DNA from: Balanoglossus misakiensis
Lineage: Eukaryota > Animalia > Hemichordata
DNA: 64,000 bases
Direction: 5' to 3'
NCBI GenBank assembly: GCA_040954595.2
Contig: CM082580.2
Location: 12,724,909-12,788,908 of the forward strand
Shown: positions 40,701 through 55,871 of the stretch, piece by piece
Layout: every line of letters starts with the position of its first letter
How positions within the stretch are numbered: the stretch's first letter is position 1
Translations under genes and position numbers: made by a program
Notes under the pieces: generated by a model
The model's input: only the letters and a program-made list of their open reading frames with translations
Databases searched by the model: none
What the model was told of the DNA's origin: nothing

Positions 40701-43106
40701 TACGTGCGTACGTGACTAGTCAGCCAGATTATTCTTGCGATATTCGTTTTCTTCTGAGAAATGATACCAAATTCTTAAAAAAGACCGAAATATTTTTCAA
40801 GACTTGTGAATTTGCCGATCCAGTGACAGGTCCTGTTGATTGAATACTAAATCAGCCCTGTCTGCAAACACCGGTGTTTCAGTTCTGTAATTACAGAAAC
40901 GGACATAGCAATTATCCAACTGCCGCATTTGTGTGCCGCAAACTCTGTCACGTGCCAGCAGTGATTACAGTTCTGAAATCTTCCCCGTTTTTACAAGCCC
41001 TGTAGCGGAGATCACTTCGCATAGCCTCTAACAGGAACAGATCGATCCGGGCCTGTCATGAAATTTATCGCAGTCAGCTATCACCGCGAACAACAACTCC
41101 GCATCTAAGTGATCAGCTACGTACTTGTCGTGCTCGTAAAATACTGCAATAAACCCGACAAAGATGCAACACGCAACACACTATACCTGTTTTTTATGAT
41201 ATATCCCTTCTCTCGCTTGCAAAGGCCTTTATCGATGTTTTGACTCATGTGAAACATTATCTCAGTATAATAAAAAAAAAACTAATAATACCAATGCCTT
41301 GTACAATCCGCCTTCCAACCTCATCTTAATCCTCTTACAAGTCAGCGTACTCACTCACTCACTGCAGGGAATAAATATCACCAACGCTTTTGCGGTGATC
41401 AAATTTTAAAAGCCCTTATTTTAAAATCCGAACTGAAAACAGTTTGAATGTCTTTTCTCTCTACACGAAAATGATAATGGCGTTTCGCTGTTTCTTAATC
41501 TCATCATTGTTTCCTACGTAAGTAGTGTAGAATACATCATTTCGACGTCTGGGCTGTGTGAGCCCAGGATCCCATAAGACGAGAAGTGAGATTGCGGAAG
41601 TAGTACTTTGTATAGATTTGGGGGGGGGGGATGAATTCTCCGTGCCGTACGTATCTGGTGAGCATGTATAGAGATGCTCTGTTCCCGGATGTAAAATTTG
41701 AGTCAAACATTTGCGCCTTTGGGACTAGTAAGCGACGTCAAGAAACTTCCGTGAACAGTTAAATATACATAAGTGTTGGTAGTTTAATGAACTATACTGT
41801 CAGATCTTACGTCATCGTTAGCCAGGGGACTGCCTACAGTATACCCGAATGATTGCTGATGGCTTCTGGGAAGTCAAATAAATTCACAAATTACCTAACT
41901 TTAATTGGCCGAGAGAAATTCCACCAGGAACAGTCATTTTAATCATAGACGGACACCTCCTTTGAGATTTGCGTTTGTTTAATAATAAAAAAATATCAGA
42001 GATATTTCACACAGCGTGTCCTTTGTAATATCCTCAGCTGTAAACGATTAATTTAAGAAAAACTCTCGTAACACACTTCATGGGCTTTTCTGTTGTAATA
42101 ATTCATCTTCGCTTGGAATGTTTTAACTTAGACGGCTGATAGCACATGTTAAGTTGACAGAATGTTTTCTATTTTCTCGAGATAAATAAATAATTTATGA
42201 CCAGGTTAAAAATGAATGTCGTTCTTGCGACCATAAAATAATAGGTTTCCTAAGGTTGTTCAAGTACATAAGTTCGGTGTTTCAACGTACGTGCACTACG
42301 CTTTTGTTAGTGGAACATGAATGCCATTCGGTTTTGAGTCACGGAATAGAAAAAATGTTCAAAAATGCTCGGAAATTACACCTATTGTCCCTGAAAGAAA
42401 GCGCGATAAATAGTCTGTGATATAGACGTCACGTCAACATTTTATGTTCAGAAGACGTTATGCGCCACACGTTGTGGGAAAGAAAGAAGAGAAAAAAATT
42501 AGGGAGACTTAGTGATGCCAAATAATAGCGCAAGAGGGAGCGATAGTAAACGGAGATAGCAGTCAACAGTCATTACACGGTATTCACGTGACACCTGTGG
42601 GGCAATTGATGCATTGGCGAATATGTCTGCCTCGGAATACAAAATAATATTAGTAAATAAGGCAGCGCGTAAAGCGACCTCCAATTCCATACTTTACGGC
42701 TTCCTTTACCATAAAACAAAATTGGGGATAATGTAATCCGTGTAAAAACGCGCTCTGAATGGAATTATGAAGCGTTGGATCCCGCCAAAACGTCTAAGCA
42801 CGGTAAGTTGTGTCCTACCTTCGTGTCGTATGGTGTCATTCGCAGTCTGTATCCGCTCAAGACAGCGTCGTTTTCATTGACGTGTGTTAATGCCAAATTA
42901 ATGGCCGGTTTAATGGCCCAGGCCACGTAGTGTTCCTGTGTCGCCGAGGAGAAGGGAAAGAGAGCGGCGAAGTGGATATCGGTCTTGTCGGACGTCATGT
43001 TGTCCGCCTCTGGTCCCCCCTCGACGCCGTGGCGTGGGAAAGTCCAGCACAACATCACAGTGATGGCCACTAATAGCCAGCCGTAAAACACACGAAAAAC
43101 ATCCAT
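21996..43106 (-). CDS. GABBR2: GABA-B receptor subunit 2-like class C GPCR, isoform using the proximal first exon (about 1027 aa)
   Basis: Exons: 42819-43106, 33818-33955 ([26 protein letters not shown]), 33296-33466 ([21 protein letters not shown]), 32921-33022, 31567-31632, 31005-31196 (KYVWILPG), 30256-30483 ([17 protein letters not shown]), 29687-29747, 29142-29222, 28802-28952 (TM1), 28469-28601 ([13 protein letters not shown]), 26683-26790 ([13 protein letters not shown]), 25714-25836, 25014-25124, 24427-24651 ([22 protein letters not shown]), 23992-24156 (coiled coil), 22812-22959, 22560-22686, 21996-22461. Sum 3084 nt, in frame. No RSRR ER-retention motif was seen, favouring the R2 type over R1; exact orthology is not proven. 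Confidence 0.9.
22689..22718 (+). repeat. (GA)n microsatellite forming the polypyrimidine tract of a GABA-B receptor splice acceptor
   Basis: About 15 GA units immediately adjacent to the minus-strand CAG acceptor at 22687. Confidence 0.9.
24327..24418. mobile_element. Minimal MITE-like remnant with terminal inverted repeats
   Basis: Perfect 14-bp inverted repeat AAGGTAGTATTCGC (24329-24342) / GCGAATACTACCTT (24403-24416), overlapping TCAA and TTAA flanks. The same terminus recurs at 19556-19580. Confidence 0.55.
39028..39075. repeat. Short 11-bp tandem repeat (YCTTATAAGTT), about 3.5 copies
   Basis: CCTTATAAGTT TCTTATAAGTT CCTTATAAGTT TCTTAT.. seen directly. Confidence 0.8.
42819..43106 (-). 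CDS. GABBR2: GABA-B receptor proximal first coding exon (signal peptide plus start of Venus flytrap domain)
   Basis: accATGg start; [62 protein letters not shown] phase-0 donor; 288 nt. Confidence 0.9.
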
Positions 43107-44229
43107 GGTTGGTCTCGGTAAAGTCGCTGGTGAAAATCATCTATTCCCTGTACGACTATAGGAGCCAAGCAAGCGCGCATCTGTTGTGAAGATAGTCTCT
43201 GCACTTTTATGGTACACGCTGAGTTTCGTCGTTCTCTTCCGTCGCCACCGCACAATTTACAAACTATGCGCGTTTTCTAATCCACAGACGTAAAATGTAG
43301 GTTGTATGCTTGACATCCGCTCAAGAGTTTGTGTTCTACAACCCAAGGCTACTTTCAGTTGTGTGTGCGTGAACAGCTTTGTGGCCACAAGGACGAGGTG
43401 ACTTCTGAGCCTCCATGCAGAGAATGAGTAAGTCCATAGCATACAGTGCAGGTTTCGGTCGACAGAAGTTTCCTCCGAGAAATAGACTCTGTCACTGGAG
43501 TCGCCGGTCGACGTATTTCAGTCTGCACGACTAGACGTACACGTGGAAAAACGCGGCCGCGCTCACCTCGATGGTTTGAATTAAACGGCTAGGAGTTCAG
43601 TACGAAATTTAGAAAAAAAGGCCGAAGACTTCATAGGGAGTCATACGATCAACCGCAAAACCCGCGTGTCGCCGCAATTAAAATACACCATGTTGCTAAA
43701 ATAAACCAGCGAGAGAACTCTTCCAACACAGTGTCAATGCAACCATGCGGCTAACTGAGACAGTCGGAAAAAAAATCATTCCAAGATGCAGTGCGCCCCC
43801 ATCATGCACACCGCACATCAGACGGTATCAAATTGTACTGGGTGAGGCTGATCGTCATGGAAACCGAGTGAAGTTAGCATATAACGTACAGCAAACAGAA
43901 GGACAGAATCATCGCATGGATGGCCTTACAATAAGCGAACAACAGCGCAAAATAAAACCCTTAGCAATGACCTTTCACCCTTTGCTGTGACAAATATTCT
44001 CAGAGGACAACATCGTTTCCGTGTGCCATTTCATGGTCCATTGCCATCACATCTGCGTGTACACGATAAATATACATAGGAATGATGACGGATGACATTG
44101 TCTGAACAAAATCAATTGCCTTGTGTTTTGTTTCTGTTCATTATAACACAATATATCCTGGTTTTGAAATGTCAAGGCAGATGCCTCCGTCATCGCACAG
44201 TATCTATCTCTCCCTCTATATACTCTCCC

Positions 44230-55589: not shown

Positions 55590-55871
55590 CTTGCTATCAT
55601 AGCGTTCCATGTGCAGCCGGAATCCATCGAGAACGGAGTTGTCCTTATTGATGTGGCGCAAGGCAAGGCCAATCGCCGACTGCACTCCCCACGCCACTTT
55701 GCTCTCTGGACGCTCGGGCGACAGAGGAAACAGGGCGGCGAAATGAAGATCCGTCACCTGCGTGCGATTACTGTCGATGAAAGTCGTGTCCGATCTTCGG
55801 ATGCAGCAGGTAGCCAGTAAGAGCAAGACTGTCACGCATCCCGATCGTTGTTTTCCCTGGTTTGGCACCAT
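55590..55871 (-). CDS. GABBR2: GABA-B receptor distal alternative first coding exon (paralogous to 42819-43106)
   Basis: accATGg start; MVPNQGKQRSGCVTVLLLLATCC..TDLHFAALFP..AIGLALRHIN..VLDGFRL..YDSK; AAG|GTAAGC phase-0 donor; 282 nt. No other receptor exons were found between it and 43106. Confidence 0.85.

What the first reader, a model, noticed from the sequence alone, without database searches (positions are those of the whole stretch)
42819..55871. GABA-B receptor gene with two duplicated, mutually exclusive first exons that swap part of the Venus flytrap domain
Seen: exons 55590-55871 and 42819-43106 each have an accATGg start, their own signal peptide, an N-glycosylation sequon (NRT, NMT) and an ungapped 55-aa flytrap segment with 30/55 identities by my count. 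Both end in YD(S/T)K with a phase-0 donor compatible with the single exon 2 acceptor at 33955, and only one set of downstream exons exists. Established: mammalian GABA-B1a/1b isoforms arise from alternative promoters but differ by sushi domains and share the flytrap domain. Inference: here promoter choice changes the first strands and helix of lobe 1 of an R2-like subunit, a variable-exon/constant-region design. Both copies are intact despite about 45% divergence, suggesting selection on both.
Basis: partly seen in the sequence, partly recalled or inferred. Interest (0 to 1): 0.8.

Follow-up and report, generated by a model that had tools for sequence, protein, structure and literature searches.

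The report
Swappable first exons in GABA-B2 receptor
An acorn-worm gene for the second subunit of the GABA-B neurotransmitter receptor carries two intact, anciently duplicated first exons that each supply a different start of the outer "flytrap" domain, likely chosen by separate promoters, and the same swap appears in public gene models of related worms and a sea cucumber.

Summary
Observation confirmed. Exon A (55871-55590, 94 aa) and exon B (43106-42819, 96 aa), minus strand, share 30/55 residues ungapped, end in phase-0 GT donors and fit one acceptor at 33955. One 18-exon body follows; no third first exon or second body lies in the window. The gene is an acorn-worm (hemichordate) GABA-B2-type subunit. 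Ptychodera flava RefSeq models carry an A-type (X2) and a B-type (X1) start on one identical body; A~A 71%, B~B 78% identical, A~B about 52%, so both exons predate that species split and are conserved like ordinary flytrap exons. The design recurs: a second P. flava paralogue (2 first exons), sea-cucumber GB2 (3), possibly Saccoglossus (2). The swapped piece is signal peptide, strand 1, loop, helix A, strand 2. GB1's GABA anchors are mostly absent, so a GABA-site switch is unlikely; two promoters giving two cell- or stage-specific partner subunits is the best reading. No RNA reads were available; promoters and function are untested. The kind (duplicated alternative first exons) is known; my paper searches found no report of it for GABA-B2.

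The parts
55590..55871 (-). Alternative first coding exon A (94 aa: start, hydrophobic leader, sequon, strand 1, loop, helix A, strand 2); orthologue of the P. flava isoform X2 start
   Evidence: 99/97 with P. flava A; 39/55
42819..43106 (-). Alternative first coding exon B (96 aa, same elements); orthologue of the P. flava isoform X1 start
   Evidence: 95/86 with P. flava B; 43/55
33818..33955 (-). Exon 2, first constant exon (helix B, strand 3, helix C); single acceptor for A and B; 100% identical in protein to P. flava
29142..33466 (-). Exons 3-9 (33466-33296, 33022-32921, 31632-31567, 31196-31005, 30483-30256, 29747-29687, 29222-29142): rest of the Venus flytrap domain
   Evidence: Pfam ANF_receptor on exons 3 and 7
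24427..28952 (-). Exons 10-15 (28952-28802, 28601-28469, 26790-26683, 25836-25714, 25124-25014, 24651-24427): stalk and seven-helix domain
   Evidence: Pfam 7tm_3 on exon 15
21996..24156 (-). Exons 16-19 (24156-23992, 22959-22812, 22686-22560, 22461-21996): predicted coiled coil and C-terminal tail; the last exon's end is my hand model
   Evidence: long helix 758-790 in the P. flava model; matches the GB2 coiled-coil region
43107..55589 (-). 12.5-kb spacer between A and B; would hold the promoter of B; no coding remnant of a paralogue
33956..42818 (-). 8.9-kb intron between B and exon 2

Best explanation
The gene carries two intact, homologous first exons upstream of one shared body, and likely makes two full-length GABA-B2 subunits by starting transcription at either of two promoters and splicing that exon to exon 2. 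Each exon has its own start, leader and the first strand-loop-helix-strand of lobe 1, so the two proteins differ only in about the first 95 residues. Both would act as the usual GB2 partner (dimerise with a GB1 subunit through lobe 1 and the coiled coil, couple to G protein), because exons 2-3 and the membrane part are shared. The main gain is likely regulatory (different cells or life stages, different leaders), with the changed lobe-1 loop and helix A at most tuning partners or GB1 sensitivity rather than switching a GABA site. The design likely recurs because GB2's first intron is an old phase-0 intron, so duplicating promoter plus exon 1 yields a working second start at once. Shown: exon anatomy, orthologous A and B on one body in P. 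flava models, conservation, recurrence in models, fold of the swapped part. Inferred: two promoters, expression differences, GB1 partnership, functional effect.
For: P. flava XP_070566247 (A-type) and XP_070566245/6 (B-type) share a body identical over the 600 residues compared. Orthologue pairs: 99/97 and 95/86 in the exon tree; 39/55 and 43/55 identity versus 70-82% for exons 4-7 and 9. Joining A to any of the 14 AG sites between 43300 and B's start gives a stop; 5 AG sites from 43019 down to the exon end stay open in frame but lack a pyrimidine tract, so co-inclusion looks unproductive. 109 of 140 relatives of the exon continue with Val (GTN, read as the donor) right after the D-T-x end and 7 with the exon-2 Cys: the boundary is old. 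Same design in P. flava paralogue g4 (2 starts) and Apostichopus GB2 (3 starts). GB1 pocket residues (PMC12499500, passage) mapped by motif through: S116=S, S139=T, H156=V, Y236=E, W264=G, E343=L. Homologous N-terminal swaps are said to come from alternative promoters in PMC8373072 (passages).
Against: No transcript or start-site data were seen for this species; RefSeq models are automatic and I could not see their read support. No TATA or GC box within 1.5 kb of either ATG, and CpG o/e is about 1 across 10-57 kb, so it marks no promoter. Only 9 of 55 positions are fixed within both orthologue pairs yet different between A and B, which shared ancestry alone could give: no sign of isoform-specific function. 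The swapped loop sits where GB1 has its ligand-contact Trp (W65 in PMC7411975), so a pocket effect is not excluded. A canonical acorn-worm GB1 partner was not identified here (the only GB1-named hit, P0206, is divergent: 416 vs 379 bits for GB1 vs GB2).
Confidence: 0.6

Rival explanations
1. Pocket switch: the expanded acorn-worm GB2-like receptors bind a ligand in their own cleft, and exon choice swaps the strand 1-helix A loop that lines one side of it, giving two specificities from one gene, as half-domain swaps do in FGF receptors.
For: The loop (residues 49-54 of the A model, 71-76 of the B model) is where fly W51/human W65 lies. Ser at the S116/S130-equivalent in 10 of 12 distinct hemichordate bodies plus the window, versus 1 of 10 non-hemichordate bodies and Pro in human GB2; Thr at the S139-equivalent. 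A's loop is nearly fixed between species and A lacks the helix-A proline that B keeps. Four paralogue groups in acorn worms.
Against: Four of six mapped GB1 anchors are absent. The Ser is one inherited change, not many. GB2 ligand binding has not been observed (PMC7411975, passage). The Trp at the start of helix A is the same in A and B.
Confidence: 0.15
2. One promoter and a shared non-coding 5' exon, with A or B chosen by splicing.
For: AG sites lie shortly upstream of B's ATG (43126, 43113); P. flava has two accessions for the same X1 protein, which may be UTR variants; no core-promoter motif was found.
Against: No strong pyrimidine-tract acceptor within about 1.3 kb of either ATG (nearest 57204 and 44538). 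The upstream gene's ORFs end near 58219 and its CpG-poor zone near 57000, leaving little room. No convincing intron pairings among 22 inverted repeats.
Confidence: 0.15
3. Origin by whole-gene tandem duplication: A is the first exon of a neighbouring paralogue whose body was lost and which was captured as a second start (an account of origin; A still works).
For: A~B identity (51-52%) equals that between A or B and first exons of other hemichordate paralogues (41-56%). Paralogues share a scaffold or chromosome in Saccoglossus and P. flava. The exon tree does not resolve A and B as sisters.
Against: No body remnant between A and B; A+B as one clade is not rejected (p-AU 0.55); the sea cucumber has three starts, and only one GB2 body was retrieved for it.
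Confidence: 0.3
4. One exon is a dead relic or an assembly artefact.
For: No RNA evidence was seen for this species.
Against: Both exons are open, with starts and donors, and each has its own orthologue on the same body in P. flava; the window's self-comparison shows no duplicated DNA around them.
Confidence: 0.04

Closest known systems
GABA-B2 subunit (GABBR2; human 6W2X_B, fly 9JQX_B)
   Same: Best sequence match (765 bits) and fold (flytrap rmsd 1.5-1.8 A to 4MQE_B/4F11); no cysteine-rich domain; coiled coil; GB1 anchors missing.
   Different: Two alternative first exons that each encode part of lobe 1; four paralogue groups in acorn worms.
GABA-B1a/1b isoforms
   Same: Two N-terminal isoforms from one gene.
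   Different: GB1a/1b differ by sushi domains and share the whole flytrap (PMC7411975, PMC8163086, passages); here homologous flytrap segments are exchanged, and in GB2.
Tandem exon duplication-derived N-terminal substitutions (39 human cases in PMC8373072; UGT1A and clustered protocadherins)
   Same: Duplicated 5' coding exons, one constant body, long conservation.
   Different: Only 2-3 variable exons; the variable exon holds part of a domain core, not a whole ectodomain. A find for GABBR and GPCR in that paper's main text gave 0 hits; its supplementary table was not read.
FGF receptor half-domain exon swaps (PMC8373072 passage); AMPA flip/flop and insect RDL exon pairs (recalled)
   Same: Homologous exons replace part of a receptor's extracellular domain; the FGFR case recurs independently in vertebrates and arthropods.
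   Different: Those are internal exons with shown effects on ligand binding or kinetics (recalled); no such effect is shown here.
P. flava RefSeq XP_070566245-7
   Same: The orthologous gene with the same two starts, already in automatic annotation.
   Different: Unlabelled database isoforms; the window is another species (88% identical over 700 body columns).

Membership tests
GABA-B2 subunit | Flytrap domain plus class C seven-helix domain without cysteine-rich domain | tested here: met
   Pfam ANF_receptor and 7tm_3; short stalk in models and alignment
GABA-B2 subunit | Closer to GB2 than to GB1 | tested here: met
   P. flava orthologue 765 vs 517 bits; Foldseek top hits are GB2 chains
GABA-B2 subunit | Lacks the GB1 GABA-binding residues | tested here: met
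   4 of 6 mapped anchors absent, 1 identical, 1 similar; mapping by motif, not by structure
GABA-B2 subunit | C-terminal coiled coil | tested here: met
   helix 758-790 in model, aligned to the GB2 region
GABA-B2 subunit | Heterodimer with GB1 and Gi/o coupling | not testable with these tools
   needs expression assays; no complex prediction was run
Tandem exon duplication-derived N-terminal substitution | Two homologous 5' coding exons in tandem before one constant exon | tested here: met
Tandem exon duplication-derived N-terminal substitution | Each is joined alone to the constant body in transcripts | tested here: inconclusive
   met in P. flava RefSeq models; no reads listed for this species
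Tandem exon duplication-derived N-terminal substitution | Choice made by alternative promoters | tested here: inconclusive
   motif and CpG scans uninformative
Tandem exon duplication-derived N-terminal substitution | Origin by exon duplication, not gene duplication with loss | tested here: inconclusive
   p-AU 0.55 for A+B clade; tree unresolved
GB1a/1b-type sushi isoforms | Isoforms differ by added sushi domains and share the flytrap | tested here: not met
   no sushi hit; both exons encode the same flytrap elements
Protocadherin/UGT1A-type variable cluster | Many variable exons, each a whole domain | tested here: not met
   two exons only; each about 55 of about 400 flytrap residues

The most novel reading that the evidence does not exclude
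Acorn worms and echinoderms repeatedly evolved a cassette system in GABA-B2: interchangeable first exons rebuild one wall of the flytrap cleft, and the expanded acorn-worm GB2-like receptors, which regained a pocket serine, use it to sense ligands of their own, so the 'ligand-less' subunit becomes a tunable sensor, with four paralogues times two or three starts.
Probability: 0.15. Interest if true: 0.75.

Novelty: new variant of a known kind. Interest (0 to 1): 0.42.

Why it matters
GABA-B diversity is thought to come from GB1 sushi isoforms and auxiliary proteins, with GB2's flytrap a fixed, ligand-less scaffold. Natural, conserved swaps of part of GB2 lobe 1, found in up to four genes across acorn worms and a sea cucumber, are ready-made chimeras to test what that part of GB2 does (allosteric tuning of GB1, partner binding, or a hidden ligand). 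If the isoforms prove equal, it remains a clean case of promoter-plus-exon duplication recurring at an ancient phase-0 intron.

Tried and rejected
No whole genome is held for the window, so synteny and a GB1 partner could not be checked. Sequencing runs: no RNA holder listed for 24400-34000; this is no evidence either way, and no reads were laid. Word search with exon B alone: 0 of 129 candidates passed. Promoter marks: no TATA or GC box, CpG o/e flat. RNA pairing for exon choice: 22 inverted repeats, none convincing; the 51-nt hairpin at 34123-34173 is unexplained. Species-specific duplication: orthologue pairs are supported, though the AU test is borderline (p 0.051). One origin shared with the sea-cucumber exons: rejected for 2 of 6 pairings (p 0.0005, 0.008), not for the other 4 (p 0.06-0.36); the 15 hemichordate first exons group apart at 95/91. 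No dN/dS between orthologues (no P. flava DNA on hand). No complex prediction (a textbook pair would pass by likeness). Earlier scan findings: 0 matched. Clusters with several models but one start type: Glandiceps 8602/3, Saccoglossus 4736, Acanthaster, Mytilus, Vanessa; Lingula models lack exon 1.

Full report
Observation. Exon A (55871-55590) reads 94 aa and exon B (43106-42819) 96 aa; each starts accATGg, has a hydrophobic leader and one sequon, and ends in phase 0 at a GT donor. Their last 55 residues share 30 identities without gaps (E 7e-19). Exon 2 begins at 33955. Eighteen exons placed by hand from 33955 to 21996 give one open 931-aa frame, so the isoforms would be 1025 and 1027 aa. 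A profile built from 22 other first exons finds only A and B among 2730 six-frame segments, and six relatives find no second body. The window's self-comparison shows no DNA duplication around the exons, so this is no haplotype or assembly doublet.

What the gene is. A search with exon 7 returned 7 proteins of 95 candidates, all acorn-worm GABA-B2-like. The P. flava orthologue scores 765 bits to human GB2 and about 517 to GB1; its model matches GB2 chains best. A tree of 22 bodies (first 700 residues; one row per shared body, exon 1 left out) shows four hemichordate paralogue groups; the window's gene pairs with P. flava g1 (100/100, 88% identity) and then two Saccoglossus genes.

Both exons are used in a relative. 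The P. flava cluster holds isoform X2 (XP_070566247) with an A-type start and X1 (XP_070566245/6) with a B-type start; their bodies are identical over the 600 residues compared. Window A matches P. flava A at 39/55 and B matches B at 43/55, while cross pairs are 51-52%; the exon tree joins the orthologues at 99/97 and 95/86 (forcing window A with window B gives p-AU 0.051, borderline). Flytrap exons 4-7 and 9 are 70-82% identical between the species, exon 8 95%, exons 2-3 98-100%. So both first exons are older than the species split and decay no faster than constitutive exons. RefSeq X isoforms are automatic models, usually built on transcript alignments (my knowledge); I did not see their read support, and no RNA run was listed for this window.

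The design recurs. Of the ten multi-member GB2 clusters read, four show different homologous starts on one body: P. flava g1 (2), P. flava g4 (2; XP_070573334-7), Apostichopus japonicus GB2 (3; XP_071853303-9) and Saccoglossus g1 (2). The last is weaker: the two starts come from an old and a new model, and two neighbouring models lack exon 1. Five clusters show one start type and the Lingula models lack exon 1. The 15 hemichordate first exons group apart from the three sea-cucumber ones (95/91); pairing A or B with a sea-cucumber exon is rejected in 2 of 6 tests and not in 4. Independent origins are likely, not proved, on 62 columns. If Saccoglossus 'a' and 'b' match A and B (not rejected, p-AU 0.31 and 0.46; not shown), the pair is older than about 370 million years (PMC4729200, passages). 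Of 140 relatives of the exon in the unnamed library, 109 run on with Val, the GT donor read through, right after the exon's last motif, and 7 with the exon-2 Cys: the phase-0 boundary is old, which makes promoter-plus-exon-1 an easy unit to duplicate (inference).

What is swapped. In AlphaFold models of the two P. flava isoforms (27-row alignments; mean pLDDT 70 and 69, 83-93 over the swapped core) exon 1 gives strand 1, a six-residue loop, helix A and strand 2; helix B starts in exon 2. The lobe 1-lobe 1 dimer contact (PMC7411975, passages) is made by helices B and C (recalled), which are in the shared, 100% conserved exon 2. Fly GB1 pocket residues (PMC12499500, passage), mapped by motif through the alignment, read S, T, V, E, G, L for S116, S139, H156, Y236, W264, E343: no GB1-type GABA site. 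The seventh residue, W51 (human W65), lies in the loop that exon 1 supplies, so the swap does touch the cleft's wall. Twenty-five of 55 positions are the same in all four A/B sequences and 9 are isoform-diagnostic, among them loss of the helix-A proline in A; that number does not show functional divergence.

How it likely works. Two promoters, each followed by a complete first exon, feed one body; A skips B because joining A to any of 14 AG sites between 43300 and B's start gives a stop, and the in-frame sites inside B lack a pyrimidine tract. Both products would serve as GB2 partners; the gain is likely separate control of expression and leader, with at most tuning by the lobe-1 surface (0.6). 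Rivals: pocket switch for an own ligand (0.15; Ser at the S116-equivalent in 10 of 12 hemichordate bodies plus the window against 1 of 10 others, but one inherited change); splicing choice after a shared non-coding exon (0.15); dead exon or artefact (0.04). Origin by gene duplication with loss of one body is open (0.3). Promoter scans were uninformative.

Known or new. Duplicated alternative first coding exons are a known class (39 human N-terminal cases; PMC8373072, passages; supplement not read). GB1a/1b differ by sushi domains instead (passages). Seven literature searches (listings and abstract starts only) and term finds in a 2026 GABA-system phylogeny preprint (no mention of hemichordates by name), a hemichordate single-cell paper and a cnidarian larva preprint showed no report of this design in GB2 or of the acorn-worm expansion; the library lacks most subscription papers and supplements were not read. 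(passages) added only background. The isoforms already sit unremarked in RefSeq. Verdict: real, conserved, recurrent; new variant of a known kind; function untested; interest 0.42.

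Noticed in passing
P0218, P0219, P0220 (Apostichopus japonicus XP_071853303-9): Sea-cucumber GB2 models carry three different homologous first exons (35-44% identical) on one identical body.
   Followed up: partly
P0195/P0207 vs P0208/P0209 (P. flava XP_070573334-7): A second acorn-worm paralogue (g4) also has two first exons, 46% identical in the core.
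   Followed up: partly
P0001-P0012, P0195-P0197, P0203: Four GB2 paralogue groups shared by Ptychodera and Saccoglossus, three of them also retrieved from Glandiceps; most have Ser at the GB1 S130-equivalent position.
   Followed up: partly
P0206 (Saccoglossus): A divergent GABA-B-like receptor nearly equidistant from GB1 and GB2 (416 vs 379 bits).
   Followed up: no
window 34123-34173: 51-nt near-perfect hairpin (25-nt arms, 96%) about 170 nt upstream of the shared exon 2 acceptor; may be a small transposon relic or affect splicing.
   Followed up: no
window 58879-63591 (-): 1570-aa stop-free, very cysteine-rich frame with many sequons and a furin-like basic site; no Pfam match; 58219-58830 looks like a further exon.
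   Followed up: no
window 13042-14706 (-): 554-aa frame with a leader-like start, acidic Pro-Ser-Asp-Leu repeats, His-rich motifs (about 237-nt unit, 4 copies) and a poly-Asp run of 27 codons; possible secreted metal-binding or mucus protein.
   Followed up: no
window 8988-10032 (-): 183-nt unit, 5.6 copies, 96% alike, encoding an acidic/proline-rich repeat; may belong with the gene at 13-14.7 kb.
   Followed up: no
window 1278-2141 (-), 5900-6394 (-), 4490-4834 (+): Nup120/160 beta-propeller exon (E 6e-20), a weak TPR hit, and a Lys/Arg-rich frame.
   Followed up: no
window 10000-57000 vs 1-7000 and 57000-63000: CpG o/e is about 1 over the receptor locus and 0.2-0.7 over the flanking genes, as expected if the receptor gene body is unmethylated.
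   Followed up: no
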